A stretch of DNA of 64,000 nucleotides from a plasmid. Within the stretch, counting starts at the first letter, position 1. Every line of letters starts with the position of its first letter. A program made the position numbers and the translations under genes. The stretch is taken from sequence record NZ_CP020429.2. One strand, written 5' to 3'. Below are positions 8,592 to 50,166 of the stretch, piece after piece. Under the pieces are notes generated by a model, which made no database searches, had not been told where the DNA came from, and saw only the letters and a program-made list of their open reading frames with translations.

Positions 8592-8601
8592 GAGGTACTG
8601 G

Positions 8602-20720: not shown

Positions 20721-20731
20721 GGAGAATTATT

Positions 20732-21424: not shown

Positions 21425-21488
21425 TGGTATTGTCCCTCAGTACTTAAGAAAAGGAAATCACAAGTAGTAGAAGGAGCACACTTTAAAA

Positions 21489-22074: not shown

Positions 22075-25000
22075 ATGAGAAAGGCATATGTTTTTAAGGA
22101 ACGTCAACGTTACTCAATTCGTAAATATTCTTTTGGAGCTGCATCAGTCTTGATTGGTGCGAGCTTGATGCTTGGTGGGCATGCTTTGGCTCAGGAACAA
22201 GCCAATAGCACAGGTTCTATCACGGACTATGAAGTTACTGTAAATAATTCTGAAGCACCCCAAATTGACCAAGCAACTTCAGAAGCTGTTACCGAGGTTC
22301 TCAATGAACCAGCTTCAAGATCTGAAGCGCCAAGACCTAAGCTTGCCAGCAGTGAAGTTGCTTCCTCTGAAGCTAGTAGTGTAGTGGTCAGCGAGGCTGC
22401 TTCTTTGGAAGTACCAGCAGAGGTTGCTCAATCTGCATCTGCTGTCGCTTCTGTTGCGAGCTCAGAGGTGGCTAGTCCACGTTATGAAGTGTCATCAGTA
22501 GCTAGCTCTGAAGTAGTTAGTGAGATTAACCGTTCAGCAACTTCAGAAGTAGCAGAAGCTAGAGTTACTGACCGTGAAGCTGTCGATACTAGTCTTCGTA
22601 CTGTCTTAACTAATGCTAGTCAGCCAGGTGTAGATGGTCCTGTGACTGCTGATGGTTCTCTTGATATCCCATCAAACGGTACCTATTATTTCCGTCGCAC
22701 AACTGAAATTCGTACAGCTCCAGTCATGGATATCAAACCTACATTTGTCTTTAGTGCAGGCGACCATGTTATCTATGATAAGGTCTTGAAGAGAGACAAT
22801 CATCAATGGATTTCTTATATTGGTTATGACTATGAACGCTACTACGCTGATATCGCAGCATTGAAGGCTGAAAATACTAGTAGCAACACTGAAGCGACTA
22901 GAGATGAAACCATCCCTGAACGTGGTACTTATTACTTCACTAAACCTGCAGATGTGAAGAACCAACCTAGCTTGACTGCCAAGACTGAGTTCAATTTTGA
23001 TCCAGGCATGTCAGTCAACTACGATAGATCTTTGCTTGCGGACAACCACCGTTGGATTTCTTACACTTCGTACAGTGGTACTCGTCGTTATGTCGACCTA
23101 GGTGCTGTTGCAGAGGCTGTAGCTAAACCAAGAGGCGATATCGCTATTGAAAGTCATGACAATGGTGACTTTAGTGTAGTTATCAGTAATGTTTCAGACC
23201 AAAACGGTGTCCTCGGGGTATCTGTTCCAATCTGGTCTGAAAAGAATGGTCAAGACGACATCATCTGGTACAATGCGACTCGTCTTAACAATGGTAACTA
23301 CAAGGTTAACGTCAGTCTAACTGACCATAAGAATGAACGTGGTCTCTACAATGTTCATCTTTACTATGTTGAAACTAATGGTAAATTAGTTGGTGTTGGT
23401 GGCACAACTTACACAGTTCCTGCCAAGGTCGAAGAAACTCACACAACTACTAGTTATAGCCTTCCTGACTCAGGAACTTATACTTTCAAAGAACGCTCTA
23501 GCATTAAGGCAGAACCTCGTGTAGCAAGTCCAGAGTTGGCTTACTATGATGCTGGCATGTCAGTCAACTACGATAAGCTTGTCAGTGGTGATGGTTATGA
23601 ATGGCTTTCTTACCTCAGCTACAATGGCAACCGCCGTTATGTAGCCGTGGCTAAACTTGCTCAACAAGAAAGCAAACCAAGCGGTACTATCAATATTGAA
23701 AATCTCTCTAACCTTGGTTTTGATGTTCATATCACTAATGTTTCTGGTGGTGACAAGGCTATCCAAGGCGTAAGTGTTCCAGTTTGGACATCCAAAGACG
23801 GCCAAGACGACCTTGTATGGCACCAAGCTAGCAGACAAAGTGATGGTAGCTACAAGGTTCGTATCAATGTTAGTGACCATAAGGCTGAAGCAGGCGAATA
23901 CATTGTCCATCTCTACTATGTTCAAGATGGTAAGATGGTAGGTATAGGAGGCACTAGCACAACTGTTCCAGTTCAAAATGCAACTCGCCACAACCTTCCA
24001 GCTTCAGGTTCATATACCTTTACTGCTCGTACTGGCATTAAGGCAGAACCTCGTGTGGCAAGCCCAGAGTTGGCCTACTACGATGCTGGTATGTCAGTCA
24101 ACTATGACAAGATTGTCAGTGGTGATGGTTATGAATGGCTTTCTTACCTCAGCTACAATGGCAACCGACGTTATGTAGCCGTGGCTAAACTTGCTCAACA
24201 AGAAAGCAAACCAAGCGGTACTATCAATATTGAAAACCTCTCTAACCTCGGTTTTGACGTTCATATCACTAATGTTTCTGGTGGAGACAAGGCTATTCAA
24301 GGCGTAAGTGTTCCAGTTTGGACAGCTAAAGACGGCCAAGACGACCTTGTATGGCACCAAGCTAGCAGACAAAGTGATGGTAGCTACAAGGTTCGTATCA
24401 ATGTTAGTGACCATAAGGCTGAAGCAGGTGAATACATTGTCCATCTCTACTATGTCCAAGATGGTAAAATGGTAGGTATCGGAGGCACTAGTACAACTGT
24501 TCCAGTTCAAAATGCAACTCGCCACAATCTTCCAGCTTCAGGTTCATATACCTTTACCGCTCGTACTGGCATCAAGGCTCAACCTTTGGTAGCCAACCCA
24601 GATGTTAGCTACTACGATGCTGGCATGTCAGTCAACTATGACAAGGTTGTCAATAATGATGGCTATACATGGCTTTCTTATCTCAGCTATTCAGGACATC
24701 GTTTCTATGTGGCTATCGCACCAACGAGTGTGACTAAACCTGTAGAACAACCTGTTCAACCAAGTACACCATCATCTGGTACCTATACTTTCAAAGAACG
24801 CTCTAGCATTAAAGCAGAACCAAGTGTAGCGAGTCCAGAGTTGGCTTACTATGATGCTGGTATGTCCGTTAACTATGACAGATTGGTGACTGCAGATGGT
24901 CACACATGGCTCTCTTATGTTAGCCATGGAGGCAACCGTCGTTACATTGCTATTGATGGTAAGGCAACAGCAGTTGCTCAACCAGCAAGTCCAAGCCTAG

Positions 25001-25191
25001 CTGCGACTGGTACTTATACCTTTACCAAACCTAGCTCTATCAAGGCTCAACCAAGTATTGCTAGTCCAGAGTTAGCCTACTATGATAAAGGCATGTCCGT
25101 TCGCTATGACAAAGTCCTTACAGCTGATGGCCACACCTGGTTGTCTTATGTAACCTATAGCGGTGCAAGACGCTATGTGGACATTGCTTAA
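22075..25191 (+). CDS. large secreted repeat protein with SH3b and Bsp-like repeats
   Basis: YSIRK-type signal; Ser/Ala/Val-rich SEVAS region; at least 7 SH3_5-like and 3 Bsp-like modules; no LPXTG; a 534-bp internal tandem duplication. Confidence 0.8.
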   Translation: MRKAYVFKERQRYSIRKYSFGAASVLIGASLMLGGHALAQEQANSTGSITDYEVTVNNSEAPQIDQATSEAVTEVLNEPASRSEAPRPKLASSEVASSEASSVVVSEAASLEVPAEVAQSASAVASVASSEVASPRYEVSSVASSEVVSEINRSATSEVAEARVTDREAVDTSLRTVLTNASQPGVDGPVTADGSLDIPSNGTYYFRRTTEIRTAPVMDIKPTFVFSAGDHVIYDKVLKRDNHQWISYIGYDYERYYADIAALKAENTSSNTEATRDETIPERGTYYFTKPADVKNQPSLTAKTEFNFDPGMSVNYDRSLLADNHRWISYTSYSGTRRYVDLGAVAEAVAKPRGDIAIESHDNGDFSVVISNVSDQNGVLGVSVPIWSEKNGQDDIIWYNATRLNNGNYKVNVSLTDHKNERGLYNVHLYYVETNGKLVGVGGTTYTVPAKVEETHTTTSYSLPDSGTYTFKERSSIKAEPRVASPELAYYDAGMSVNYDKLVSGDGYEWLSYLSYNGNRRYVAVAKLAQQESKPSGTINIENLSNLGFDVHITNVSGGDKAIQGVSVPVWTSKDGQDDLVWHQASRQSDGSYKVRINVSDHKAEAGEYIVHLYYVQDGKMVGIGGTSTTVPVQNATRHNLPASGSYTFTARTGIKAEPRVASPELAYYDAGMSVNYDKIVSGDGYEWLSYLSYNGNRRYVAVAKLAQQESKPSGTINIENLSNLGFDVHITNVSGGDKAIQGVSVPVWTAKDGQDDLVWHQASRQSDGSYKVRINVSDHKAEAGEYIVHLYYVQDGKMVGIGGTSTTVPVQNATRHNLPASGSYTFTARTGIKAQPLVANPDVSYYDAGMSVNYDKVVNNDGYTWLSYLSYSGHRFYVAIAPTSVTKPVEQPVQPSTPSSGTYTFKERSSIKAEPSVASPELAYYDAGMSVNYDRLVTADGHTWLSYVSHGGNRRYIAIDGKATAVAQPASPSLAATGTYTFTKPSSIKAQPSIASPELAYYDKGMSVRYDKVLTADGHTWLSYVTYSGARRYVDIA
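23461..24528 (+). repeat. two tandem 534-bp units (about 95 percent identical) inside the surface-protein gene
   Basis: Unit 1 is 23461-23994 and unit 2 is 23995-24528; both start CTTCC(T/A)G; a third diverged unit starts at 24529. Confidence 0.9.
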
Positions 25192-25397: not shown

Positions 25398-26009
25398 TCA
25401 TAATTTAATCAGTATTCTGATAAATAATTCTTTTAACTTTTCTAAGTCTTCATGGACTGTCCCGTCCATATAGAGATTATAAACTTCATCGTCTTGTTCC
25501 ACTCGTATCTGTGCAGAGTAACCTTTTGATAGAGCTAAAGCACGAATAACCTCTCGTTGAGTTCGTCCATTACCCTCTCGAAAGGGATGAAAATAATTAA
25601 GATTATCAAGAATTTCTATTAAATGCATAATGATTTCATCTTTGGAGTTGGCAGTTTGATGATAGGAATGAATCAGATGATTCATATGAGTTTCAGCTGT
25701 ATTAAATGACTGTATTGGCATAAAAGGATTACCGCTTTTAGAGATATTTACTTTGCGATATTGTCCAGCCCAAGCGTAAACATCTTGAAATAAATAATTG
25801 TGGATGGCTAGAATATCGCTCATGGAATAGACCTGAATGGGCTCTAAACGCAAGTCTGCAAGCCTTCTAGTAACGAATAAGTGTTCATTTCGGTAAGCTT
25901 CTTCGATATTTGTAATATTTTGTTTATTGACTAAGACTGTAGAATCTGGATAGGTATATTGGTTATTAGGGTCAATGTACTTATATCCTTCATATTGATT
26001 CTTAACCAA
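25398..26009 (-). CDS. Fic/Doc-family protein (AMPylator-type toxin)
   Basis: Canonical Fic motif HPFREGNGRTQRE; 203 aa. Confidence 0.85.
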   Translation of the reverse strand: MVKNQYEGYKYIDPNNQYTYPDSTVLVNKQNITNIEEAYRNEHLFVTRRLADLRLEPIQVYSMSDILAIHNYLFQDVYAWAGQYRKVNISKSGNPFMPIQSFNTAETHMNHLIHSYHQTANSKDEIIMHLIEILDNLNYFHPFREGNGRTQREVIRALALSKGYSAQIRVEQDDEVYNLYMDGTVHEDLEKLKELFIRILIKL

Positions 26010-26190
26010 TGTTCAATTCCTTTCGTCTGTTAGTGACATAAGTTTTTAAATCAATTACATCCTGAACAGTAGGCTCATAATTTTCAATCATTGAAGATCC
26101 GATAGCATACCAAACGGTATCAAAATCTGAATAATTATCAAAAGAAATTCCTAAAATTGTTAATTCTTCTTCATTTACATCAAGAGTCAT
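26002..26190 (-). CDS. small acidic protein coupled to fic (putative antitoxin)
   Basis: 62 aa; 8-nt overlap with the Fic gene start. Confidence 0.45.
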   Translation of the reverse strand: MTLDVNEEELTILGISFDNYSDFDTVWYAIGSSMIENYEPTVQDVIDLKTYVTNRRKELNIG

Positions 26191-26353: not shown

Positions 26354-26851
26354 ATCTGTTTGAGTTTTTACACATAATTATTGATAGCATCAAAACAAGG
26401 CTTGCATAACCTTGGGAATATTTGACAGCACCTTCATTAATTCCAGTCAGTAGTTACATTCTAAAACATTGTACTTGTTTAATTGGAACTGAGAGAAATT
26501 TGGTATCGTAAAAACGCTCACTAATTAAATAGTAGAGTCCTCTTATATACAAGATATGTGCCTTCTTGGATAGTTATCTGAAAGTATGATGATAAAGTGG
26601 TTGGTCATAAATTATTGATGATTCATGTGACAATCAGAAAAATCCATTAGATTCATGACATTATAACTTTACCAATATTATGATAGAAATTTGATAACGG
26701 TATTGAGAAATATTTAATTGAAAATTCTAAAAATAAGGTATTAAAAAAGTAATTATGGTACAATATAAAAGAAAATCGTTTTATCTTTTATATCGAATTT
26801 TTGCTGTTACTCACTAATTTGTGTGTTACTTATAGTATTATAGGAGTAATG

Positions 26852-27529
26852 ATGAATAAGATTTTAGCCATTGATGATGACGAAGAAATTCTAAAACTTA
26901 TAAAGACAGCTTTAGAGATTGAGAATTATCAAGTCACAACTTTACAAGAAATACAAGTACCAATAGTTTTTGATAAATTTAAGGGGTATGATTTAATTCT
27001 ATTAGATATTCTGATGCCTAATATAAATGGAATAGAATTTTGTTATAAAATTCGTGAAGAGGTATGCTCTCCAATTATTTTTGTTAGTGCCTTATCTCAT
27101 GACGATGAAATTATCCAAGCTTTAACCGTAGGAGGAGATGATTTTATTGTTAAACCGTTTAGTTTGAAACAATTTATAGCTAAGGTTAATTCTCATTTGA
27201 AGAGAGAAGAAAGAGCAAGGTTAAAGATTGAAAGAGATAAAAGGAGCTTTCCTCCTCTAGAAATTTATCTAGAGGAACGTATGCTATACATCGATAAGAT
27301 CCCTTTAACTTTAACTTCTAGGGAATATGATATTTTGGAATTATTATCTCGTTATCCCCATAAAGTATTTACAAAAGAAGAGATATATGAACAGGTCTAT
27401 GACGAGGAGGCGTCAGCATTATTTCACTCCATTTCAGAGTATATTTATCAAATTAGAATGAAATTTGCAAGCTTTGGAATTAATCCAATAAAAACAGTAC
27501 GTGGGATTGGTTATAAGTGGGATGTCTAA
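26852..27529 (+). CDS. lanR: OmpR-family response regulator of the lantibiotic locus
   Basis: Receiver domain (ILAIDDDEEI ... LDILMP) plus a winged-helix C-terminus; RBS TAGGAG; streptin-locus-like position. Confidence 0.85.
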   Translation: MNKILAIDDDEEILKLIKTALEIENYQVTTLQEIQVPIVFDKFKGYDLILLDILMPNINGIEFCYKIREEVCSPIIFVSALSHDDEIIQALTVGGDDFIVKPFSLKQFIAKVNSHLKREERARLKIERDKRSFPPLEIYLEERMLYIDKIPLTLTSREYDILELLSRYPHKVFTKEEIYEQVYDEEASALFHSISEYIYQIRMKFASFGINPIKTVRGIGYKWDV

Positions 27530-28865
27530 AAAATATTCAATAAAAAAAAGAGTCTGGTTAGTAGTTTTTGAAGTTTGTGCTGGTTTTTTTATTACAATTC
27601 TAATAATCTATATAATTTCATTTTCTTTCTTAAGGCTAAATATAGTGACGTCCCATAATATTGGAGAGGAATATCATTTTGAAGATAAAAAAACAATAAA
27701 ACAACTGACAAACTATGCGGAATCTTTGGGACTAGATTATGTTATTTTAGATAATAAGGTAAATAAAATCATTAAGGGGAAATACATACCTAAAGAATTT
27801 TCTTTATTCAGAAAAGTTGTAGAAGAAAAAGATAACTTAATTTTGGACACAGTGCATTATGACTTCTATAACAATGTTGATTATAGTATTGTTATTAGAT
27901 ATAATGAGATGCCAGAATTTTCTAATCCTAAGTTTAGGGATGTTCCATATAATATGTTGACTTTTTATTTTCTAGGGTTAGGAATAATAACTAGTATTGT
28001 GGTTGCTTCAACAAGGTTTGTGAAAGAAATTTCTTCGAATTTTAAAGAAATAAAGAAAATAGCAAATAAAATGGGGATAGAAAGATTATCTAAACAAGAA
28101 AACTTTTCTAAAATAACGGAATTTGATGATATCCTGGCAACCCTATATACAAAGGGAGATGGTTTGAAAAATTTGATTGATCGAGAAAAATTAGAGAAAC
28201 AAGATTTATCATTTCAAATATCTGCTCTCTCTCATGATATAAAGACACCTTTAACTGTTTTAAAAGGGAACCTTGAGTTATTAGAATTAACGTCCTTAAC
28301 AACTAGTCAACAAAGTTATGTTCTTTCAATGGATAATAGTATTTCTGTTTTTGAGAGCTATTTCGACTCATTGATTTCCTATACTCGGATGCTTTCAGAA
28401 GATAGAGGAGCAAAGTTGATAGTTGTTGAAGAACTGCTAAGTGAGTTACATTTTGAGGTTGATGATCTTTTGAATATAAACGATGTTGAATTTTCTATTG
28501 GGAATCACCTTGTAAGCAGTTCTTTTTATGGAGAAGAAGAAAATTTGATACGGGCAATATCTAATCTTCTAGTTAATGCAATTAGATTTACACCCTCTTC
28601 AAATAAGAAAATAGAGGTCATATTATCTGAATCGGAAACTCTCATTTATTTTGAAGTATGGAACAATGGTCCCCAGTTTAATGATTGTACTTTGAAAAAT
28701 GGCACTAAATTGTTTTACACAGAAGATAATAGTAGAGGAAATAAGCATTACGGAATTGGATTAGCTTTTGTTAATGGTGTTGCTATTAAGCATGGAGGGC
28801 ACCTTCAGTTGGTAAACCCAGCAAGAGGGGGAGCAAGTGCAATTTTATCCATTAAGAAGAAATAG
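27522..28865 (+). CDS. lanK: sensor histidine kinase of the lantibiotic locus
   Basis: ATG overlaps the lanR stop (ATGTCTAA); two N-terminal TM segments, H-box SALSHDIKTPLT, HATPase region. Confidence 0.85.
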   Translation: MSKKYSIKKRVWLVVFEVCAGFFITILIIYIISFSFLRLNIVTSHNIGEEYHFEDKKTIKQLTNYAESLGLDYVILDNKVNKIIKGKYIPKEFSLFRKVVEEKDNLILDTVHYDFYNNVDYSIVIRYNEMPEFSNPKFRDVPYNMLTFYFLGLGIITSIVVASTRFVKEISSNFKEIKKIANKMGIERLSKQENFSKITEFDDILATLYTKGDGLKNLIDREKLEKQDLSFQISALSHDIKTPLTVLKGNLELLELTSLTTSQQSYVLSMDNSISVFESYFDSLISYTRMLSEDRGAKLIVVEELLSELHFEVDDLLNINDVEFSIGNHLVSSSFYGEEENLIRAISNLLVNAIRFTPSSNKKIEVILSESETLIYFEVWNNGPQFNDCTLKNGTKLFYTEDNSRGNKHYGIGLAFVNGVAIKHGGHLQLVNPARGGASAILSIKKK

Positions 28866-28876
28866 ATATAATTTAA

Positions 28877-28925
28877 AGCATTTGGACAGAAATTGTAAGA
28901 AATTTTCTGTCCAAATGCTTTTTTT
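28877..28925 (+). terminator. intrinsic terminator after lanK
   Basis: Perfect 15-bp stem GCATTTGGACAGAAA/TTTCTGTCCAAATGC, then T8. Confidence 0.8.
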
Positions 28926-28941
28926 CTGAACAGATTCTGAA
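28924..28941 (+). promoter_or_regulatory. direct repeat TCTGAAC-N4-TCTGAAC upstream of lanA (candidate LanR box)
   Basis: Two 7-bp repeats 11 bp apart, about 60 nt before the lanA ATG. Confidence 0.45.
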
Positions 28942-29003
28942 CTTAAGATGAAATAATAACATCGTAAATATATCGGACATATAAATAAGAGAGGAAATAT
29001 AAG

Positions 29004-29108
29004 ATGAAAAATACAATCAAAGATTTCGACCTAGATTTAAAGACAACTAAAAATAACTCTGATGAATCACTTGGTCATGCAGAAAACTGTAAAGCTAACA
29101 TTAGCTGA
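29004..29108 (+). pseudogene. lanA: class I lantibiotic precursor with streptin-like leader; core region lost
   Basis: RBS GAGAGGA. Translation MKNTIKDFDLDLKTTKNNSDESLGHAENCKANIS. The leader resembles the streptin leader recalled from memory (MNNTIKDFDLDLKTNKKDTATPY). The C-terminal 12 codons are out-of-frame lanT sequence. Confidence 0.6.
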
Positions 29109-30561
29109 ATTTGAAACTCCAGAAATATATGATGATATTACACGTATACAAAATCAAATATCCTATAAACCATTTCAAATATATAAATCTATTATTTCTG
29201 TACTTTCTTCATTAGTATCATTTATTTCTTCCTTTATCATTTTGTTGAATTGGAAAACATCAATTTTTCCACTCTTGATTATTCTTCCGGTAATTTCAAT
29301 TTATATATACTTAAAAATAGGTAAAAACGAATTTGAAATGTTATATAAGCGGAGTAGTGATGAAAGGGCAAATTGGTACATAAGCCATATTTTAACACAT
29401 GATTTTGCTGTTAAGGAATTAAGGTTAGGCATATTAGAAAACTATTTTTTAAAAAAATTTGACAAAAATAATCAACTATTTATTACTCAGGAAAATAGCA
29501 TAAATAAATCTAAAATGGGAAATGGTATTTTATTGGGAATATTGGAGATTATGATAGAGTCAATAATAATGTTTCTTGCAGTTAGAGAGGCGTTTTTAGG
29601 AATAATTTTAATTGGAAATGTAACAACCTTTATTAGATCTTTGTCAACAATGCAAACGAGTACCAAAAATATAGTGAACAATATTTATTCCTTCTATAAT
29701 GGATCACTGTACATGGAGTTACTATATGATTTCACTCATAGTGAGACTGAATACAATAATCTAAAAGAAAAAGTAGTTAACGATATTAAGTCTATCGAGT
29801 TTGAAAATGTTTCTTTTTCATATGATGGTAAGGAAAATGTGATAAATAACATAAGTTTTTCAATTAAATCAGGAGAAAAAATAGCAATTGTTGGTGAAAA
29901 TGGTTCAGGGAAGAGTACTATTTTTAAATTAGTCTGCGGACTTTATGATAATTATGAAGGAAACATTTATATAAACGGTAATAATATTCGTTCAATACAG
30001 AAAAAATCATATTATAAGAGGATATCAGCTTTATTCCAGGATTTCTTGAAATACGAGTTAACACTTCGAGAAAATATTGGTTTAGGTGATTTATCAAAAC
30101 TGTATAATGATGAGGCTTTAATAAACACATTAAAGCGTACGGGAATTGATTCAATATTTTATGAGAAAGAAGGAAAAACTAATCAGTTAGACTTAGAACA
30201 GCAACTAGGAAATTGGTTCGAGGACGGGAGACAGTTATCTGGTGGGCAGTGGCAAAAAATTGCATTGTCAAGAGTTTATCTTAAAGAAGCTGATTGTTAT
30301 TTTTTAGATGAGCCTAGTTCAGCTTTAGATCCAAAATCTGAAGCAAAAATTTTTAAAACTTTTTTTGAATTGTCACAAAATAAGATTGGCATTTTCATTA
30401 CACATAAGCCAAGTATTACTCAATTTGTAGATAAAATTCTATACTTGGAGAATGGCAATATAGTCGAGACAGGAAGTTTCAATGATTTAAATTTTAAAGG
30501 TAAGAAATTCAAAAACTTGTTAGATAAGGAGATTGGAATTGTATATGACACCTCAAATTGA
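29062..30561 (+). CDS. lanT: lantibiotic ABC exporter LanT, N-terminally truncated by about 115 aa
   Basis: 499 aa versus about 600 for NisT. The alignable region starts at the equivalent of NisT residue ~125 (STYKPFQL motif matches SYKPFQIYKS). Only about 3 TM helices precede the ABC domain (GENGSGKST, LSGGQWQKIALSR, YFLDEPSSALD). Confidence 0.75.
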   Translation: MNHLVMQKTVKLTLAEFETPEIYDDITRIQNQISYKPFQIYKSIISVLSSLVSFISSFIILLNWKTSIFPLLIILPVISIYIYLKIGKNEFEMLYKRSSDERANWYISHILTHDFAVKELRLGILENYFLKKFDKNNQLFITQENSINKSKMGNGILLGILEIMIESIIMFLAVREAFLGIILIGNVTTFIRSLSTMQTSTKNIVNNIYSFYNGSLYMELLYDFTHSETEYNNLKEKVVNDIKSIEFENVSFSYDGKENVINNISFSIKSGEKIAIVGENGSGKSTIFKLVCGLYDNYEGNIYINGNNIRSIQKKSYYKRISALFQDFLKYELTLRENIGLGDLSKLYNDEALINTLKRTGIDSIFYEKEGKTNQLDLEQQLGNWFEDGRQLSGGQWQKIALSRVYLKEADCYFLDEPSSALDPKSEAKIFKTFFELSQNKIGIFITHKPSITQFVDKILYLENGNIVETGSFNDLNFKGKKFKNLLDKEIGIVYDTSN

Positions 30562-31786
30562 ACAAATTTTAGATTATGTTGCTGATAGATTTACGAACTA
30601 TGAGCAAATAGTAGCAGAAAGTACAAATGAGACGCTAATTAGCATAGAATCTAAATACAAAAATACTTTTTTTGAAAAATCTTTAAGTCACGGAATTCCA
30701 TCATTAATTTTAATGTATAGCTCGCTATATAAAGTAACTAGACAAGATAAGTATATGGATCTGTCTAACAGCTATATCAGTAAATTAGTTGAAATAATCT
30801 CCAAAGACGGAATAGAATCTCCCTCTCTCTATGCGGGGACTGCTGGTATCTCATTGGCAATTAGGGAAGCTAGTATATCAGGGAAATATTATACCAAGCT
30901 ATTGGACTCTTTACATCGCCTATTGAAAGAACAAATTCAAGAAAAGTTGATTATAAGTTTATCAAATATAGATAAAGGGATTATTGATCCATTTGACTAT
31001 GATATGGTTAACGGTTTTAGTGGAATAGCTAATTATTTAATGCTTGAGAGAGAATATTTTTTTGAAGAGTTGAAACAAATAGGAATGTATCTTTTGAAGT
31101 ATATTGAGACAATTTTTAGTAAAGTGAAAAATTGTTCTATAGATTCAAAAATTGAATTTGATTTAGGTATTGCTCATGGAATAGTTGGTCCAATGTTAAT
31201 ATTGGCGAAGTTAAAATCAGAAAGAATCTTAGAAGATAATGATGAGATATTGAACAAGGCTATCAAGCTAGTATTTTTATATAGAAGAGAAGATAAACTA
31301 TGGCCTGGTAAAATATATTCTGATAATATTTTGAATCGTGATTTTAAAAATCTCCCTACTAGGATGGCTTGGTGCTACGGTACTCCTGGTACATCACTTG
31401 CCTTATTTAAAATATGTCAATTGATGGATTTAAACTATACTGATAGTATTATAGAGAGTTTGATTGCTCAGATAACTAGTCCAGAAAAAAATATTTATTC
31501 ACTGACAATGTGTCATGGATTATCAGGTGTTTCCTTTATATACGATTTGATTGGTAGAAGCAATTCAAATGTGAGATTAGTGAATTTTGCAGAGTGTTTA
31601 CGCCAGGAAATAATAATACAATTCTCAGGTCAGAAAATATTTGGATATACTGATAGAGAAAAATTAGGAGAAGTAGAAATTGAATTTGAATCAGTTGGTA
31701 TATTACAGGGGGTATCGGGAATTGTCTTATTTTTATTAAATCCTTATAGCGATGAGAAACTCTTGTGGGATAGAATGTTTATTTAA
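30545..31786 (+). CDS. lanC: LanC-like lanthionine cyclase
   Basis: Hallmark motifs GIAHGIVGP, WCYGTPG, CHGLSG; 414 aa. Confidence 0.85.
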   Translation: MTPQIEQILDYVADRFTNYEQIVAESTNETLISIESKYKNTFFEKSLSHGIPSLILMYSSLYKVTRQDKYMDLSNSYISKLVEIISKDGIESPSLYAGTAGISLAIREASISGKYYTKLLDSLHRLLKEQIQEKLIISLSNIDKGIIDPFDYDMVNGFSGIANYLMLEREYFFEELKQIGMYLLKYIETIFSKVKNCSIDSKIEFDLGIAHGIVGPMLILAKLKSERILEDNDEILNKAIKLVFLYRREDKLWPGKIYSDNILNRDFKNLPTRMAWCYGTPGTSLALFKICQLMDLNYTDSIIESLIAQITSPEKNIYSLTMCHGLSGVSFIYDLIGRSNSNVRLVNFAECLRQEIIIQFSGQKIFGYTDREKLGEVEIEFESVGILQGVSGIVLFLLNPYSDEKLLWDRMFI

Positions 31787-31804
31787 TTAAGAGAGGAGAA
31801 CAAG

Positions 31805-34765
31805 ATGTATAATGTATTTCCAAGAGGCATGATCCGTGTTCCTTTGCAAAAACAGGAATTTTATGAAAAAGGATATGATGAGCTGATAAAAGATAAAGTT
31901 TTTATGGAGCAACTTTTAGTTGCTAGTCCTAGTCTCTATCATAGTGTAAAAAATATTGATAAATGTAACGAAAAGAAAAAACAAAAAATAAAAATATCAA
32001 TAAAAAGTTACGCAAAAAGGGCGGCACTACGTACTACTCCGTTTGGAATTTTTACCGCAATAAATGTAGTCGACCTGAAAAATGAAACAAACTCCAATGT
32101 AAAAAAAATTAGTTTTACTAAAAAAGCGACACCAGATTATCTTTGGATATATTCTTTGGTGAAATCTTATGAAATAAAGAATATAGAAGAACTTGCCTTC
32201 AAAATTAATACAGCAGCATTTATCCAAGGGGATAGATATGTATTACCATTTACAGTGAGTGAGTTTGAGGAAGATAGAAATATAAGTCTTTCAAAACCAG
32301 TTCAGATATTGATTGAAAAATGCCAGAAAAACTATGTGAACTATGAAGAACTGATAAAAATACTTAAAACCAGTTATCCGGAGATAGCTTTAGAAGTGCT
32401 AACATCATTTATTTACAATTTGGTTGAAAATGATTTTTTAATTTCAGATCTAAGACCACCTATTTGTAATATTAATCCACTAGATTATTTATTATCGAAA
32501 TTGGAAAAGGGAAGACTAAAAAACGATTTACAACATTTAAAAAATATGATTGAGAATTATAATGATTTAAAAATAGGTGAGGGCTGTAATTTACTTCTTC
32601 AAATATTTGATGTCATGAAAAATATCCATAAATATGATATTGGTGGAAATTACCTAAAGGTAGATTCCATAGCAAATTTTAATGGTAGATTTGATGTCTT
32701 ATCGGAAAAGTCTTTAGAGATTATAAAGCAGCTTGCAGAGATGTTTGTGAAGTTAAATAATAACGTTAAAAGAAGAGGTGGCAGGAAAAATTCACTTAAA
32801 GAATATCAGTTGAAATTTATTGGAAAATATGGGGAAAACTGTGCAATTCCTCTTGTAGAAGTAATAAATAAGGATGTTGGTATAGGTTTCCCTGATTATT
32901 ACAAAGACGAATCAGGAGAAGCAATAGAGTTTAGTGATCCAATAATGCAAATGTTTGAAAAGAAATACGAGGAGGCTCTTTTAGATGGTAAAAGTATTGA
33001 ATTTCGGTCAAAGGATTTACATGATTTTAAATTAAATCAAAATAATAGTTTAGAATCATTTGAATTAAATTTTAATATCAAAAAACTAAATGATGATATC
33101 AAGTTATATTTAGGTGCCAATATTGGTTCTGGTCAAGCTGGAAGAAGTTTCGGTAGATTCTATACATTAAGCGAACAATTGAAAACAACTATTCAAAAAT
33201 TAGATCAGAAAAATTGTATGAATGTAGAGCTATCATTCGTTCCGAATCAGATAAGAATAGCGAATGTAATGCAAAATTATAGCACTGAAACCTTCAATAC
33301 ATCATTTTTTACAACATCATGGGATTCGACAAATGAAATTAGATTAGAAGACATCTATATAAGATATAGTGAAGGTAAGTTTCATTTTACAACAAGTGAT
33401 GGGAAAAATGAATTGAAATTTACTATGAATAATATGTTGAATCCTGACAGCCAAAGTAAGGTACTGAGATTGTTGGTTGATATATCAGAGTTTGAGTATG
33501 GATTGTCACATTGGTCTTTATTTCCATGGGATATTTTAGCTCAGGAAAAAGTCTATATTCCTGAAATTTCGTTTGAAGGAATTACGATAGCTACCGCACA
33601 ATGGAACTTATCAATGATAAGAGAACAGTTACTAACTAAAAATAAATTTATTGATAAAAAAGTTATTTTTGATAATTTTAGAAAAACATACAAGGTTCCA
33701 AATGACATCATTTTAAAATATGCAGATAATGAATTAAGGCTAGATTTATCTATGGATGATGACTTAGAGATTTTATTTAAAAATATCAAAAAATACGTAT
33801 ACGTTTCGCTAAGAGAAATTGAAAAAGGAGAATCAATTTTTAAAGAATATTTAGGTAACTATAACGCAGAAATAGTTGTTCCAATTATTAAAGAGATAGA
33901 TAGAAATGCAAGCCATGAAACTAATTTAATCTTTAAAAATGAAATTAAGAGAACATATTTACCATTTTGTGACTGGCTATTTTTAAAGTTGTATGGTCCT
34001 AAAGAACGACAAAATGAACTATTAGGTTACTGGAGCAATTATTTTGCGAATATACTACCAAGAAATTATAATCAACCCAAAATGTTTTATATGAGATATT
34101 ATGACACAAATGATCATATAAGAATGCGAGTAAATTCTCGTTCTTTTGAGAATAATTTTTCTTTATATTTGTCAGTAGTTCGTGACTTATTACCTATGTT
34201 GATAGAAAAAGGTATTGTCTCAGATATAGAGGTGAGTAGTTATAAGCCAGAGGTAAACAGATATGGGGGACCTAATTTAATACACTATGCTGAAGAAATT
34301 TTTTGCAAAGAATCTATTTTATTTATGAATCATATAATAAGTTTGTCAGAAAATGAAAGATTAGTTTGTGCTACATATTTAGTTTTATACTATCTAAATT
34401 ATTTCTTCAAAGATGAAGTGACAAAGTGTTCTTTTCTCCTTGAGAATTATACTGGAAAATATAAGAAAGAATTTAAAAATTTACCAATTGATTTACCCAT
34501 AGAGTATATGAAGAGTTTGAAGGGAGTAGCATCGGCGCTAGATAGATATGATTATTTCCAGGAAATGGATAAATATCTTACTTCTTATATGGAAGAATAC
34601 AATCGATTCGATAGTACAAATGATCTATATAATACAAAATTTAATTTAGTAGGAAGTTTTTTACACTTATCAATGAACCGATTAAATGGGATTAATAGAG
34701 AATTTGAAGAGAAGGTATATTGTTTTGCTTATTACACACTAAATGCCCAACAGTATATAGAATAG
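31805..34765 (+). CDS. lanB: LanB-type lantibiotic dehydratase
   Basis: 986 aa, NisB-like size and architecture; RBS AGAGGAG. Confidence 0.85.
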   Translation: MYNVFPRGMIRVPLQKQEFYEKGYDELIKDKVFMEQLLVASPSLYHSVKNIDKCNEKKKQKIKISIKSYAKRAALRTTPFGIFTAINVVDLKNETNSNVKKISFTKKATPDYLWIYSLVKSYEIKNIEELAFKINTAAFIQGDRYVLPFTVSEFEEDRNISLSKPVQILIEKCQKNYVNYEELIKILKTSYPEIALEVLTSFIYNLVENDFLISDLRPPICNINPLDYLLSKLEKGRLKNDLQHLKNMIENYNDLKIGEGCNLLLQIFDVMKNIHKYDIGGNYLKVDSIANFNGRFDVLSEKSLEIIKQLAEMFVKLNNNVKRRGGRKNSLKEYQLKFIGKYGENCAIPLVEVINKDVGIGFPDYYKDESGEAIEFSDPIMQMFEKKYEEALLDGKSIEFRSKDLHDFKLNQNNSLESFELNFNIKKLNDDIKLYLGANIGSGQAGRSFGRFYTLSEQLKTTIQKLDQKNCMNVELSFVPNQIRIANVMQNYSTETFNTSFFTTSWDSTNEIRLEDIYIRYSEGKFHFTTSDGKNELKFTMNNMLNPDSQSKVLRLLVDISEFEYGLSHWSLFPWDILAQEKVYIPEISFEGITIATAQWNLSMIREQLLTKNKFIDKKVIFDNFRKTYKVPNDIILKYADNELRLDLSMDDDLEILFKNIKKYVYVSLREIEKGESIFKEYLGNYNAEIVVPIIKEIDRNASHETNLIFKNEIKRTYLPFCDWLFLKLYGPKERQNELLGYWSNYFANILPRNYNQPKMFYMRYYDTNDHIRMRVNSRSFENNFSLYLSVVRDLLPMLIEKGIVSDIEVSSYKPEVNRYGGPNLIHYAEEIFCKESILFMNHIISLSENERLVCATYLVLYYLNYFFKDEVTKCSFLLENYTGKYKKEFKNLPIDLPIEYMKSLKGVASALDRYDYFQEMDKYLTSYMEEYNRFDSTNDLYNTKFNLVGSFLHLSMNRLNGINREFEEKVYCFAYYTLNAQQYIE

Positions 34766-34776
34766 GAGTAATCAAT

Positions 34777-35472
34777 ATGTTAAAAATACAAAACTTAAGA
34801 AAATCTTATGGTAAGAGAACGGTACTAGATAATGTCAATATGAATATTCCTAAGGGAAAAGTGTATGCTTTAATAGGTCCAAATGGTGCTGGAAAATCAA
34901 CTATTATGAAAATTTTGACTGGTTTAATTAATAAAACCAGTGGTTCTATCACTTTTGAAGGTAGAGAATGGTCACGTCGAGATTTGCAGAAAATTGGAAG
35001 TATTATTGAAGAACCACCACTTTACAAGAATTTGAGCGCATACGATAATATGAAAGTAGTTACAACAATGCTTGGTATTTCAAATAGTACAATACTTCCG
35101 CTATTAAATAAAGTAGGTTTAGGAAACATTGATAGGAGACCAGTAAAGCAATTTTCTCTAGGGATGAAGCAAAGGTTAGGAATAGCTATCGCTTTAATAA
35201 ATTCACCTAAATTACTTATATTGGACGAGCCTACCAACGGGTTGGATCCTATTGGAATTCAAGAATTAAGGGAAATTATAGAGTCATTTAAATCAGATGG
35301 GATGACAGTCATGATTTCAAGTCATATTCTTTCAGAGGTCGAACATCTAGCTGATTTTATTGGTTTTATTTATGAAGGAAAGATTGTACTGGAGAAGGAA
35401 TATGATGGATCTGAGAATCTTGAGGAGTTATTTAATAATCAAATTATATATGAAAAAGGGAGGAGATTATGA
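34777..35472 (+). CDS. lanF: lantibiotic immunity ABC ATPase (LanF)
   Basis: GPNGAGKST, LSLGMKQRLGIAIAL, LLILDEPTNGLD; RBS TAGGAG. Confidence 0.8.
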   Translation: MLKIQNLRKSYGKRTVLDNVNMNIPKGKVYALIGPNGAGKSTIMKILTGLINKTSGSITFEGREWSRRDLQKIGSIIEEPPLYKNLSAYDNMKVVTTMLGISNSTILPLLNKVGLGNIDRRPVKQFSLGMKQRLGIAIALINSPKLLILDEPTNGLDPIGIQELREIIESFKSDGMTVMISSHILSEVEHLADFIGFIYEGKIVLEKEYDGSENLEELFNNQIIYEKGRRL

Positions 35473-36218
35473 AACAAGTTTTTTTATCAAATTTAATTAA
35501 AATAAAGAATACGAGTATTTTTAGGTTAATTTTTATTTTCCCTTTCATTTGTGTCATTCTTTCTTTATTGTTTTCATCATTGGGTGGTAAGGAAGTATTA
35601 AGTCTAACTGCAGAAACCACCGTGAATCAGTGGGGGGTTATTTGGATTAATGTAATTATAGCTGTAAATTCCGCTTTGTTAAATAAGTTGGAATTAGATT
35701 CAAATAAGTATTCTGTTTATTTATCAAGGAATGTTAATTTAAAAAAGGTAGAATACGCAAGAATCATATTGGTAGCTTTTTTAAATTTAATAATTAGTAT
35801 GATTTTAAGCCTAATACTTATCTTAATGGGTTTAATTTTACCCACACCAAGTCTTATTAGTATATGTAGGATGCTATTAACTATTTTATTGATTTGGTTG
35901 ACAACATTATGGCAAATTCCATTTATTTTATGGCTATCAAGAAAAACTAATTTGTATTTTGCTATGATTATTAATACAATATCACCACTAATTATTGGTA
36001 CAAGTTTTTCTCTCTTAGATACATGGTATTTGTTTCCTTATGATTGGTCATTGAAGCTACTTGAACCAATGACAAAAATGAGAATAAATGGTATACCTAT
36101 TGGATCTGAATATATTCCTGATTATTCAATGATTTTCGTTTCATTTTTCTTAGGGATTACTTTTTTCATTTTATTGGTCGAACTATCTGCTATCTCTTTC
36201 AAAAGACAGGTTAAATAG
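35469..36218 (+). CDS. lanE: lantibiotic immunity ABC permease (LanE)
   Basis: 249 aa, 6 TM; coupled ATGA overlap. Confidence 0.7.
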   Translation: MKQVFLSNLIKIKNTSIFRLIFIFPFICVILSLLFSSLGGKEVLSLTAETTVNQWGVIWINVIIAVNSALLNKLELDSNKYSVYLSRNVNLKKVEYARIILVAFLNLIISMILSLILILMGLILPTPSLISICRMLLTILLIWLTTLWQIPFILWLSRKTNLYFAMIINTISPLIIGTSFSLLDTWYLFPYDWSLKLLEPMTKMRINGIPIGSEYIPDYSMIFVSFFLGITFFILLVELSAISFKRQVK

Positions 36219-36220
36219 TC

Positions 36221-36943
36221 ATGAAATCATATATATACTCTAGTTTTTTAAAAATAAAAAACACTTCTTATTTGCTAGTACACATTTTAGCCGCATTATT
36301 ATTTCCACTACTTTTGTTCCTATATTGGAATCAACGTGGAGGGTTACAAAGCAGGACAGTATTATTTTCTTACTTTCAAATAGTAGGAGTACTTCTTCCT
36401 TTTGCTTCTAGTATTGTGAATATTCAACTAAAAAATTTGGAGGAATCATCTGGTAAATTTAAATATTTGTTAGGGTATTCACAATCGAATTATAAGCCAT
36501 TTTTTGCTGAATTGGTATTTTTGTGGTTATGTTATTGTATAGTTTTAATAGTTTCAATTACTATATTTATCTTTTTGTTGAAAACTATTGGTATAGTTGT
36601 ATCTCTAAGATTACTTATTTTGATTAGTTTATTTTATATTATTTTGGGCTATATAGCATATATGCTTAATCAGATTATTAGTTATTTATTTAGCACAGGT
36701 GTGGCACTAGGTATTTCAATGATGGGAGTCATTATTGCTGCGTTTTGTGAAACGAGTCTCGGTGATAAGGTATGGTTTCTAATCCCATGGGCATGGTTTT
36801 TGAGAGTATCAGATACACTATTCAACCAACAAAAAATAGATAACACTCCACTTATGATTATATTTGTTATTTCTATCATAATAGTATTTTTTCATTTTTT
36901 ACTATTTCAAAAGTGGAATCAAGACCGCTTGATAAGTGGTTAA
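36221..36943 (+). CDS. lanG: lantibiotic immunity ABC permease (LanG)
   Basis: 240 aa, 6 TM; 2-nt spacing from lanE. Confidence 0.7.
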   Translation: MKSYIYSSFLKIKNTSYLLVHILAALLFPLLLFLYWNQRGGLQSRTVLFSYFQIVGVLLPFASSIVNIQLKNLEESSGKFKYLLGYSQSNYKPFFAELVFLWLCYCIVLIVSITIFIFLLKTIGIVVSLRLLILISLFYIILGYIAYMLNQIISYLFSTGVALGISMMGVIIAAFCETSLGDKVWFLIPWAWFLRVSDTLFNQQKIDNTPLMIIFVISIIIVFFHFLLFQKWNQDRLISG

Positions 36944-37341
36944 ATATGTTCAGTTTTCTATCTATAATTAATACAATCTAATTATGTTTGATTAGGAAAT
37001 GGCTATAACATCTTATATCCTTGGATTTTATAGTATGATTTTAACATATATTTTCATAGATTTACTTTTAATGATGAAAATTTGAATCAATTTCAATAAA
37101 CTTTTTAAAAAAAGTAATGACAGTTACGATTTAAAAAAATATATGTGTTACATAGGACATTTAATATAAAGTTTTATTTGACTAGCTACTTTCTTCCTCG
37201 CCGTTTGGAGTCTGGCCAATATAAAAAAGAGAGGCAGCCTTGGACTACCTCTCTTAGATTATAGACAAACTACTTTTTCAAAGGTGGTTTGTTTTTTTAT
37301 TTTCTTAACATAATAGCATCGGCTGAATAGGTTTCCTCTCA

Positions 37342-48008: not shown

Positions 48009-48022
48009 TTAAGTAACGGTGA

Positions 48023-50165: not shown

Positions 50166-50166
50166 T

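What the first reader, a model, noticed from the sequence alone, without database searches (positions are those of the whole stretch)
26852..36943. Streptin-like class I lantibiotic locus (lanR, lanK, lanA, lanT, lanC, lanB, lanF, lanE, lanG) with a deletion removing the precursor core and the lanT 5-prime end
The gene order matches the streptin locus as I recall it. The lanA ORF at 29004 has a strong RBS and a leader (MKNTIKDFDLDLKTTKNNSDES) that resembles my memory of the streptin leader. After about 22 codons it runs into out-of-frame lanT sequence and stops; no Cys/Ser/Thr-rich core is present. The downstream lanT starts at the equivalent of NisT residue ~125, so about 2 of 6 TM helices are missing. 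lanR, lanK, lanC, lanB and lanF/E/G look intact. This points to a single deletion of roughly 400-450 bp with its junction near 29060-29090. The cell would keep sensing and immunity but lose production, a cheater-like state. An alternative is that the real structural gene sits elsewhere.
Basis: partly seen in the sequence, partly recalled or inferred. Interest (0 to 1): 0.75.

Follow-up and report, generated by a model that had tools for sequence, protein, structure and literature searches.

The report
Streptin lantibiotic locus with inactivating deletion
This is the known streptin antibiotic-peptide gene cluster on a Streptococcus salivarius megaplasmid, in which a 482-bp deletion between two 13-bp repeats has destroyed the peptide gene and its exporter while the sensing and self-protection genes stay intact; the locus is ordinary, but the same deletion turns up on several different plasmid lineages.

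Summary
Window 26852-36943 holds lanR-lanK-lanA'-lanT'-lanC-lanB-lanF-lanE-lanG. Its proteins are 73-93% identical to S. pyogenes SrtRKTCBFEG. The window's proteins match those of a 206,913-bp contig of Streptococcus sp. FDAARGOS_192, and the backbone matches S. salivarius megaplasmids.

A 99%-identical intact sister locus maps the lesion exactly. It is a 482-bp deletion between imperfect 13-bp direct repeats, GATGAA(C/T)CACTTG, with the junction at 29061-29073. It removes lanA codons 24-46 (the whole streptin core, VGSRYLCTPGSCWKLVCFTTTVK), the lanA-lanT spacer and lanT ribosome-binding site, and lanT codons 1-97, which hold the first two hydrophobic segments. All other genes are full length.

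Its interpretation holds.

Beyond that finding, the same deletion occurs in 17 other public contigs. It comes in two crossover variants and sits on at least four haplotypes. Some deleted copies are essentially identical to intact sisters over more than 10 kb, which argues for recurrent origin. Two roughly 6-kb deletions and lanA start-codon losses also exist, and all keep lanRK and lanFEG.

Defective lantibiotic loci that retain immunity are well known, so interest is modest.

The parts
26852..27529 (+). lanR (srtR-like OmpR-family response regulator), 225 aa, intact
   Evidence: Pfam Response_reg and Trans_reg_C. 83% identical to S. pyogenes SrtR. The exact protein is ARC21829.1 and is seen on at least 1000 contigs.
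27522..28865 (+). lanK (srtK-like sensor histidine kinase), 447 aa, intact. The ORF is also open from GTG 27501.
   Evidence: Pfam HisKA and HATPase_c. 73% identical to SrtK. The exact protein is ARC21830.1.
28875..28921 (+). Long inverted repeat followed by a T-run after lanK, likely the lanRK terminator. It has 1 base fewer in one arm than the sister locus.
   Evidence: Read from the sequence. The equivalent element in L001 scores as a 20-pair terminator. The window copy falls outside the scanner's loop limit.
28925..28942 (+). Perfect direct repeat TCTGAAC-N4-TCTGAAC (a TCT-N8-TCT pattern), a candidate LanR binding site of the lanA promoter. It is retained in the window.
   Evidence: It is the only zero-mismatch match in the 64-kb window. 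Its role as an operator is inferred by analogy with nisin-type promoters, recalled from memory and not tested.
29004..29108 (+). lanA' remnant: 21 native leader codons, a junction codon, then 12 out-of-frame lanT codons and a stop (34 aa). It is preceded by the ribosome-binding site AGAGAGGA at about 28988-28995.
   Evidence: Translation. Matches the intact 46-aa streptin precursor over residues 1-23 only. The exact 34-aa ORF is present on 4 other contigs.
29061..29073 (+). Deletion junction: a single hybrid copy GATGAATCACTTG of the 13-bp imperfect direct repeat. 482 bp are missing here.
   Evidence: blastn overlap of the two flanks. The repeat pair was found independently in the intact locus as family D7, spacing 482. 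Junction strings were checked in 19 loci.
29062..30561 (+). lanT' (srtT-like exporter) lacking codons 1-97, which hold the first two hydrophobic segments. It has no ribosome-binding site of its own. NCBI annotates it from the ATG at 29077 as 494 aa.
   Evidence: Matches residues 98-596 of the 596-aa P0001 and of S. pyogenes SrtT at 86% identity. Hydropathy of the intact protein. WP_225791530.1.
30545..31786 (+). lanC cyclase, 413 aa, intact
   Evidence: Pfam LANC_like, E = 2.6e-63. The exact protein is ARC21832.1. 74% identical to SrtC.
31805..34765 (+). lanB dehydratase, 986 aa, intact, with its own strong ribosome-binding site
   Evidence: Pfam Lant_dehydr_N and Lant_dehydr_C. The exact protein is ARC21833.1. 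75% identical to SrtB. Ribosome-binding site seen.
34777..35472 (+). lanF, immunity ABC transporter ATPase, 231 aa, intact. It starts 11 nt after lanB, so it is probably co-transcribed.
   Evidence: TIGR03740, 364.8 bits against a cut-off of 309.75. 93% identical to SrtF.
35469..36218 (+). lanE, immunity ABC permease, 249 aa, intact
   Evidence: TIGR03732, 227.9 bits against a cut-off of 145.2. 80% identical to SrtE.
36221..36943 (+). lanG, immunity ABC permease, 240 aa, intact
   Evidence: TIGR03733, 211.8 bits against a cut-off of 117.2. 78% identical to SrtG.
37263..37294 (+). Terminator-like hairpin with a T-run downstream of lanG, the likely end of the lanA'-to-lanG transcript
   Evidence: Consensus scan. 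Function is inferred.

Best explanation
This is the streptin (srt-type, class I, LanB/LanC) lantibiotic gene cluster, carried as cargo inside the conjugation region of a Streptococcus salivarius megaplasmid. A RecA-independent, short-homology deletion, most likely replication slippage, occurred between two copies of GATGAA(C/T)CACTTG. One copy lies at the leader/core boundary of lanA and the other at codons 97-101 of lanT. The event excised 482 bp.

Shown:
- The precursor has lost its entire core peptide.
- The exporter has lost its ribosome-binding site, its start codon and its first 97 residues, which hold the first two hydrophobic segments.
- All other genes are full length.

Inferred:
- The cell can no longer make or export streptin.
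- The lanA promoter, with its TCTGAAC-N4-TCTGAAC repeat, still drives one transcript through lanC, lanB and lanFEG under LanRK control.
- The cell therefore still senses streptin made by neighbours and induces the LanFEG immunity pump. It behaves as an immune non-producer.

The deletion is a real, circulating allele. It most likely arose more than once.
For: Locus identity: domain and family hits for all nine genes. The window's proteins are 73-93% identical to S. pyogenes SrtR/K/T/C/B/F/E/G. The intact sister lanA carries Pfam Gallidermin and is annotated 'lantibiotic streptin'. Its core is identical to the published streptin prepeptide (PMC4162386).

Deletion mapping: blastn against the 99.2-99.4%-identical intact locus L001 gives a 482-bp gap with 13-bp overlap. 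The repeat pair was found independently.

Not an assembly artefact: the same junction is present in 17 other contigs from different runs and studies. NCBI annotates the truncated LanT.

Recurrence: two junction variants exist, with T or C at repeat position 7. They correspond to crossover in the first or second half of the repeat. Deleted alleles sit on haplotypes that differ by 0.7-1.4% from each other. Yet they are 0 to 2 SNPs away from intact sisters over 7.9 to 13.7 kb. The nearest SNPs between haplotypes lie only 103-207 bp from the junction.

Retained regulation and immunity: lanR, lanK and lanFEG are the same length as in intact loci. There is a single perfect direct repeat upstream of lanA'. 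The lanB-lanF gap is 11 nt, and a terminator follows lanG.

The deletion is probably recent: 10 of the window's 12 private SNPs are synonymous, so there is no sign of decay.

Streptin autoinduction and non-producing srt loci in S. pyogenes are documented (PMC4162386 and PMC1949102).

Other production-loss alleles also keep lanRK and lanFEG: 6001-bp and 5895-bp deletions, and lanA start-codon losses.
Against: - No expression or phenotype data exist. Immunity, sensing and loss of production are all inferred from sequence.
- The promoter/operator assignment rests on analogy with nisin promoters that I recalled from memory.
- The rest of the plasmid and the chromosome were not available, so a second lanA or lanT elsewhere in this strain is not excluded.
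- Recurrent origin is not proven. Short gene-conversion tracts, with under roughly 100-200 bp of flank on each side, in this naturally transformable species could move one deletion between plasmids. A later C/T transition could explain the two junction variants.
- The 13-bp repeat is not exceptional. Several similar short repeats lie nearby, and the intervening DNA has no unusual predicted structure (z = -1.3). Nothing in the sequence explains a raised deletion rate.
- The junction was not found in JGI metagenome contigs.
Confidence: 0.9

Rival explanations
1. There was a single deletion event. The allele later spread to other megaplasmid lineages by homologous recombination (natural transformation or plasmid-plasmid exchange). 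The C/T junction difference arose by a later point mutation or by mismatch repair of a heteroduplex.
For: S. salivarius is naturally competent (my own knowledge). The plasmid haplotypes are visibly mosaic: L039 matches L057 downstream of the locus but L061 upstream. L047 and L065 also show block-wise SNP patterns. The junction variants differ by a single transition.
Against: A transferred tract would have to end within 103-183 bp to the left and 201-207 bp to the right of the junction to leave no donor SNPs. This would have had to happen on at least three backgrounds. L041 is identical to intact L001 over 3,696 bp upstream and differs at 2 of 10,048 bp downstream. Both crossover variants occur on the same L001-like haplotype.
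Confidence: 0.25
2. The locus is still a producer. A functional lanA, and an exporter, sit elsewhere in the genome and are served in trans by the intact LanB and LanC of this locus.
For: lanB and lanC are intact and show no decay. S. salivarius megaplasmids often carry several lantibiotic loci (PMC4062538 and PMC10086258). Only 64 kb of this strain was available.
Against: The window holds no streptin-like core and no copy of the deleted 482 bp. Intact loci carry one lanA at exactly the deleted position. The dedicated exporter is also crippled. The accessions listed for the intact 46-aa precursor did not include an FDAARGOS_192 entry, though only four accessions are shown.
Confidence: 0.04
3. 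The deletion is an assembly or sequencing artefact in the source record.
For: The junction lies in a short repeat. One related scaffold (L040) has an N-gap and a duplicated junction flank.
Against: A 13-bp imperfect repeat is far below assembler k-mer sizes. The identical junction is present in 17 other independently assembled contigs from isolate and metagenome runs. One of them, L035, is 100% identical to the window across the locus.
Confidence: 0.01

Closest known systems
Streptin (srt) locus of Streptococcus pyogenes, srtIRKATCBFEG (Karaya 2001; Wescombe & Tagg 2003, as summarised in PMC4162386)
   Same: The gene order R-K-A-T-C-B-F-E-G is the same. The proteins are 73-93% identical. In intact S. 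salivarius sister loci the 23-aa core peptide is identical to streptin. There is no dedicated LanP protease gene. The system is autoinducing through a two-component regulator, according to the literature.
   Different: Here the locus is on a megaplasmid inside a conjugation gene cluster, not in a chromosomal ICE-like region next to the ribosomal L10/L12 protein genes. The leader differs: about 74% identical over the first 19 residues. No srtI-like gene was recognised upstream. srtI homology was not tested, because I had no sequence for it. In this window the lanA core and the lanT 5' end are deleted.
Streptin loci on S. salivarius megaplasmids (Wescombe et al. 2006, cited in PMC10086258; pSsal-YU10 NZ_MN480763.1; CP020439.2)
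   Same: The plasmid backbone and insertion site are the same. DNA identity is 96-99.6%. lanA is annotated 'lantibiotic streptin'. Strain YU10 carries the gene but made no detectable streptin (PMC4062538).
   Different: Those records have a full-length lanA and an undeleted lanA-lanT interval. pSsal-YU10 instead has lanT and lanB each annotated as two pieces. I found no description of the 482-bp deletion in the papers searched.
Internally deleted, non-producing srt and sal lantibiotic loci of S. pyogenes (M1 strains; PMC1949102, PMC4162386)
   Same: Production is lost through internal deletions of transport and modification genes, while regulatory and immunity genes persist. Database proteins show an SrtT-SrtB fusion from such a deletion (P0006).
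   Different: The breakpoints differ. In S. pyogenes the deletion runs from the srtT 3' end into srtB and leaves srtA. Here it runs from the lanA core into the lanT 5' end and leaves lanC and lanB intact. The 13-bp repeat that mediates this deletion is absent from the S. pyogenes locus.
Short-direct-repeat (slipped-strand, RecA-independent) deletions
   Same: The breakpoints fall exactly in a 13-bp direct repeat (12 of 13 identical), and a single hybrid copy is left behind. Both possible crossover products are observed.
   Different: No mechanistic test was done. No secondary structure that would bring the repeats together is predicted.

Membership tests
Class I lanthipeptide (LanB/LanC) biosynthetic gene cluster | A separate LanB dehydratase with N-terminal glutamylation and C-terminal elimination domains | tested here: met
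   PF04738 (E = 9.9e-92) and PF14028 (E = 8.2e-36) in the 986-aa ORF at 31805-34765. TIGR03891 also matches.
Class I lanthipeptide (LanB/LanC) biosynthetic gene cluster | A separate LanC cyclase | tested here: met
   PF05147 LANC_like, E = 2.6e-63, at 30533-31786.
Class I lanthipeptide (LanB/LanC) biosynthetic gene cluster | A precursor gene that encodes a leader plus a Cys/Ser/Thr-rich core | tested here: not met
   The window ORF at 29004-29108 keeps only leader residues 1-21. It has no NCBIfam hit. No core is found anywhere in the window. Intact sister loci do have a 46-aa Gallidermin-family (PF02052) precursor at this position. The window is therefore a defective member, not a non-member.
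Class I lanthipeptide (LanB/LanC) biosynthetic gene cluster | A full-length NisT-type ABC exporter (about 600 aa, six transmembrane segments plus a nucleotide-binding domain) | tested here: not met
   Only residues 98-596 are encoded. The first two hydrophobic segments are missing. The nucleotide-binding domain (PF00005) is present.
Streptin (srt) locus | Gene order R-K-A-T-C-B-F-E-G with orthologues of SrtRKTCBFEG | tested here: met
   ORF order. Reciprocal best matches are 73-93% identical and full length, except LanT'.
Streptin (srt) locus | Core peptide VGSRYLCTPGSCWKLVCFTTTVK | tested here: not met
   The core is deleted in the window. It is present and identical in intact sister loci on the same plasmid backbone, matching the published sequence.
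Streptin (srt) locus | srtI immunity gene upstream of srtR | not tested
   No reference SrtI sequence was available. Only short unconserved ORFs lie between 26190 and 26852.
LanFEG lantibiotic immunity ABC transporter | A galliderm_ABC ATPase plus MutE/EpiE and MutG permeases, adjacent and full length | tested here: met
   TIGR03740, TIGR03732 and TIGR03733 all score above the curated cut-offs. Lengths equal those in intact loci. Function was not assayed.
LanRK lantibiotic-sensing two-component system | An OmpR-type response regulator and a HisKA/HATPase_c kinase next to the lanA promoter | tested here: met
   Pfam domains. 83% and 73% identical to SrtR and SrtK. Whether streptin is the ligand cannot be tested with these tools.
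Immune non-producer ('cheater') state | No production, with immunity retained and inducible | not testable with these tools
   Sequence predicts it. Production genes are broken. The regulator, promoter and lanFEG are intact. No phenotype data exist.

The most novel reading that the evidence does not exclude
The 13-bp repeat pair spanning the lanA core and the lanT 5' end is a recurrent deletion hot spot. On this reading it acts as a one-way OFF switch for streptin production in S. salivarius megaplasmids. It repeatedly generates immune, signal-responsive non-producers, which selection then favours. Together with the ~6-kb deletions and the start-codon losses, it would give a natural, sequence-resolved system of repeated producer-to-cheater transitions in the human oral microbiome.
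Probability: 0.25. Interest if true: 0.5.

Novelty: new member of a known kind. Interest (0 to 1): 0.3.

Why it matters
The locus itself is known. Streptin on S. salivarius megaplasmids and production-defective lantibiotic loci that keep immunity have both been described.

The practical value is annotation. This strain, and any strain with the junction GATGAA(C/T)CACTTGGTCATG, should be scored as a streptin non-producer even though genome-mining tools will report a nearly complete class I cluster. This matters for probiotic screening of S. salivarius.

The modest scientific value lies in the population pattern. At least three different deletions and two start-codon losses inactivate production while sparing lanRK and lanFEG. 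One of these lesions recurs on several plasmid lineages. That gives a tractable natural example for testing producer-versus-cheater dynamics of bacteriocins in the oral microbiome.

Tried and rejected
- MAFFT pairwise alignment of the junction region misplaced the gap. I replaced it with blastn coordinates and direct reading.
- The GTDB species-representative scan returned only S. merionis as a close relative. The window's own genome is not a representative, so this scan gave no information on the frequency of the deletion.
- The exact-junction scan of JGI metagenome contigs found nothing. All extra carriers came from the Logan and ENA assemblies.
- Folding the deleted interval as single-stranded DNA gave no significant structure (z = -1.34). 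I dropped the idea that a hairpin brings the repeats together.
- The 85-aa proteins that cluster with lanA (P0258, P0259) looked at first like LanA-LanB fusions. They are simply the C-terminal remnant of LanB in the ~6-kb deletion alleles.
- A search for a second LanR box upstream of lanF found none beyond chance. I therefore rejected a separate regulated lanFEG promoter in favour of co-transcription.
- Wescombe & Tagg 2003 (PMC154524) is not held in the library. Its content is cited only through PMC4162386 and PMC1949102.
- L040 was set aside as evidence for a fifth background, because its scaffold has an N-gap next to the junction.
- Assembly artefact and trans-complementation were considered and judged unlikely (see the rival explanations).

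Full report
**1. What is in the window**

ORF listing and domain and family scans show nine co-oriented genes between 26852 and 36943:
- lanR: an OmpR-type response regulator.
- lanK: a HisKA/HATPase_c kinase.
- A 34-codon ORF at 29004-29108.
- lanT': a 499-aa ABC protein with a nucleotide-binding domain (29062-30561).
- lanC: a LanC-like cyclase.
- lanB: a 986-aa LanB dehydratase (Lant_dehydr_N and Lant_dehydr_C).
- lanF, lanE, lanG: three genes that match the lantibiotic-immunity models TIGR03740, TIGR03732 and TIGR03733 above their curated cut-offs.

The short ORF translates to MKNTIKDFDLDLKTTKNNSDESLGHAENCKANIS*. It has a leader-like start but no Cys/Ser/Thr-rich core.

**2. Source and identity of the locus**

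Exact-sequence look-ups place the window's proteins (ARC21829 to ARC21839) on a 206,913-bp contig of Streptococcus sp. FDAARGOS_192. Both flanks of the window match eight S. salivarius megaplasmids of 126-236 kb.

The flanks encode conjugation-type genes, including TcpC-like, TraG/VirB4 and a lysozyme/CHAP protein. In several of these plasmids the two flanks lie next to each other with no lantibiotic locus between them. The cluster is therefore a variable cargo module inside the transfer region.

Two PLSDB plasmids, pSsal-YU10 and the FDAARGOS_251 plasmid, carry the same locus with a 46-aa lanA annotated 'lantibiotic streptin'. The window's proteins are 73-93% identical to S. pyogenes SrtR/K/T/C/B/F/E/G taken from a locus whose SrtA equals the published streptin prepeptide (PMC4162386).

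The intact S. salivarius precursor is MKNTIKDFDLDLKTTKNNSDEPLVGSRYLCTPGSCWKLVCFTTTVK. Its 23-residue core is identical to streptin. Streptin on S. salivarius megaplasmids is already in the literature (PMC10086258; PMC4062538).

**3. Mapping the lesion**

A homology search with LanT' found a 596-aa protein (P0001) that is essentially identical over the window's 499 residues. Its contig, L001, has the same flanking genes and a Gallidermin-family lanA.

blastn of L001 against the window gives two blocks:
- L001 1302-3696 = window 26681-29073.
- L001 4166-12118 = window 29061-37013.

Both blocks are 99.2-99.4% identical. The window therefore lacks 482 bp, and the two flanks overlap by 13 bases.

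Reading the sequences shows two repeat copies. GATGAACCACTTG lies in lanA (codons 20-24, at the leader/core boundary). GATGAATCACTTG lies in lanT (codons 97-101). The window keeps one hybrid copy, GATGAATCACTTG, at 29061-29073. The repeat finder reports this pair independently in the intact locus, with spacing 482 (family D7).

The deletion removes:
- lanA codons 24-46, which is the whole streptin core. Codon 23 (Leu) survives, and codon 22 changes from Pro to Ser.
- The lanA-lanT spacer, with a hairpin that looks like a leaky terminator and the lanT ribosome-binding site.
- lanT codons 1-97.

Hydropathy of the intact protein places its first two hydrophobic segments within residues ~15-84. 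The remnant therefore lacks those two segments and has no Shine-Dalgarno sequence before ATG 29062.

It gave 400-450 bp and NisT ~125, against the actual 482 bp and residue 98.

**4. Is the rest intact, and is there a spare lanA?**

lanR, lanK, lanC, lanB, lanF, lanE and lanG have the same lengths as in intact loci. Of 12 SNPs private to the window in the 7.87 kb downstream of the junction, 10 are synonymous. There is no sign of decay, and the deletion is probably recent.

A tblastn search with streptin and nisin precursors, and a blastn search with the deleted 476 bp, find nothing else in the 64 kb. The remainder of the genome could not be searched.

**5. Likely working of the remnant (inferred)**

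- The only perfect TCTGAAC-N4-TCTGAAC direct repeat in the window lies at 28925-28942, about 60 bp upstream of lanA'. It has the TCT-N8-TCT layout that I recall from nisin-type LanR-dependent promoters.
- lanC, lanB and lanF each have their own ribosome-binding site.
- lanF starts 11 nt after lanB.
- A terminator-like hairpin follows lanG.

The simplest model is one LanRK-controlled transcript running from the lanA promoter to lanG. In the deleted allele that transcript still delivers LanFEG, and also an idle LanB and LanC.

Streptin is reported to be autoinducing (PMC4162386). The cell would therefore respond to streptin from neighbours by raising immunity while making none itself. None of it has been tested experimentally.

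**6. The allele in the population**

The exact 34-aa fusion ORF occurs on four other contigs, L035-L038. A variant with Pro at residue 22 (junction GATGAACCACTTGG) occurs on 13 more, of which 10 were fetched as L039-L048. I verified all junction strings. The deletion is therefore real and circulating. L035 is 100% identical to the window and may be the same strain.

The two variants are the two possible crossover products, one from each half of the imperfect repeat.

SNP haplotypes over 7,870 bp downstream and 2.2 kb upstream show deleted alleles on at least four backgrounds that differ from one another by 0.7-1.4%:
- L039 and L042 differ at 0 of 7,870 bp from the intact loci L056, L057, L058 and L061.
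- L041 differs from intact L001 at 0 of 3,696 bp upstream and 2 of 10,048 bp downstream.
- L036 (T variant) and L041 (C variant) lie on the same L001-like haplotype.

The nearest SNPs that distinguish the haplotypes lie 103-183 bp to the left and 201-207 bp to the right of the junction. Moving one deletion between lineages would therefore need very short conversion tracts, several times over. Independent recurrence is the more economical reading. Transfer in this competent, recombining species is not excluded, and the plasmids are visibly mosaic.

Nothing in the sequence explains a raised rate. Comparable short repeats lie nearby, and the interval has no unusual predicted fold. The repeat is degenerate in S. 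merionis and absent in S. pyogenes.

**7. Other ways the same locus has been switched off**

- A 6,001-bp deletion fuses the lanA promoter region to the last 85 codons of lanB and leaves lanRK and lanFEG. It is listed in 352 index blocks. The two common intact LanT variants are listed in 330 and 180 blocks.
- L052 has a different, 5,895-bp deletion running from the lanA leader into lanB.
- L058 has lost 12 bp that include the lanA start codon. L067 has ATG changed to ATA.
- L070 and pSsal-YU10 have split lanB and/or lanT.

Every one of these alleles spares lanRK and lanFEG. The 482-bp deletion accounts for roughly 2% of the loci seen. This is a rough figure, because index blocks are not samples.

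**8. Comparison with what is known, and verdict**

This is a member of the streptin (srt) family of class I lantibiotic clusters, and a defective one. Two defining parts, the core-encoding precursor and the full-length exporter, were tested and not met in the window. Both are present in sister loci on the same backbone.

Non-producing srt and sal loci with internal deletions are documented in S. pyogenes (PMC1949102, PMC4162386). A database SrtT-SrtB fusion protein (P0006) shows one such event.

I did not find this particular breakpoint, or its recurrence across plasmid lineages, in the papers searched. Conceptually it is one more example of a known phenomenon.

- Observation: confirmed.
- Interpretation: supported, with corrected numbers.
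- Novelty: new member of a known kind.
- Interest: about 0.3, carried mainly by the population-level pattern of repeated production loss with retained immunity.

Noticed in passing
window 47655-50829: A complete-looking lactococcin 972-family bacteriocin module. It has a 117-aa precursor (TIGR01653), a 675-aa bacteriocin-associated 7-TM immunity protein (TIGR01654 / DUF1430) and an ABC ATPase (TIGR03608). All score above the cut-offs. This is a second, unrelated bacteriocin system on the same plasmid segment.
   Followed up: partly
L049-L051, L053, L054 (junction near locus position 9998) and L052 (near 9954): Two different ~6-kb deletions of the streptin locus (6,001 bp and 5,895 bp). They remove lanA, lanT, lanC and most of lanB, and keep lanRK and lanFEG. 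The first fuses the lanA promoter region to an 85-aa LanB C-terminal remnant and is about as common as the intact locus (352 index blocks).
   Followed up: partly
L058 ~9750-9765; L067 ~9752: In otherwise intact streptin loci, lanA has lost its start codon. L058 has a 12-bp deletion (AGATGAAAAATA), and L067 has ATG changed to ATA. These are further independent ways of losing production.
   Followed up: partly
L033 (pSsal-YU10) 4230-6021 and 7265-10227; L070 13035-15994 and 17501-18172: lanT and lanB are annotated as two pieces each in pSsal-YU10. lanB is split and lanG shortened in L070. These are either real frameshifts or sequencing errors. Strain YU10 was reported not to make streptin (PMC4062538).
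   Followed up: no
window 14860-37340 versus plasmids NZ_CP090008.1, NZ_CP040803.1, NZ_CP015284.1, NZ_CP018188.1, NZ_CP054154.1: In several S. salivarius megaplasmids the left and right flanks of this region lie within about 0.5-1.5 kb of each other. The streptin module, and in some cases the big surface-protein genes too, is therefore a variable insert inside the conjugation gene cluster.
   Followed up: partly
window 25398-26190 (- strand): A Fic/DOC-family protein (203 aa) overlaps a 62-aa upstream ORF, a toxin-antitoxin-like pair right next to lanR. The Fic gene is split or shortened in L001, L040, L041 and L045, and absent in many other plasmids.
   Followed up: no
window 18918-25191: Two large secreted or surface proteins (600 aa and 1043 aa) lie here. 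Pfam hits were seen on the equivalents in L051, with YSIRK signal, CHAP, SH3_5 and GBS_Bsp-like repeats. The 1043-aa protein contains long, near-identical internal repeats.
   Followed up: no
window 56268-63256 and 46532-47464: A complete type I restriction-modification system (HsdM 863 aa, HsdS 412 aa, HsdR 1041 aa) and an IS30-type transposase (HTH_38 and rve) on the minus strand.
   Followed up: no
window 26502-26681 and ~37010; L001 12118-12589: Besides the 482-bp deletion, the window and L001 differ by two other indels. The window has about 180 bp extra upstream of lanR, and lacks about 470 bp present downstream of lanG in L001. Across plasmids the lanG-downstream spacer comes in several lengths, and an optional 128-aa ORF appears there.
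   Followed up: no
L040 10119-10216: This metagenome scaffold carries the deletion junction, then a run of N, then a second copy of the sequence that follows the junction (CACTTGGTCATGCAG...). This may reflect a mixture of intact and deleted alleles in that sample, or a scaffolding artefact.
   Followed up: no
window 28875-28921: The long hairpin after lanK has one base fewer in its left arm than in L001 and other plasmids (AAA versus AAAA). The consensus scanner no longer calls it a terminator. The effect on read-through from lanK into lanA' is unknown.
   Followed up: no
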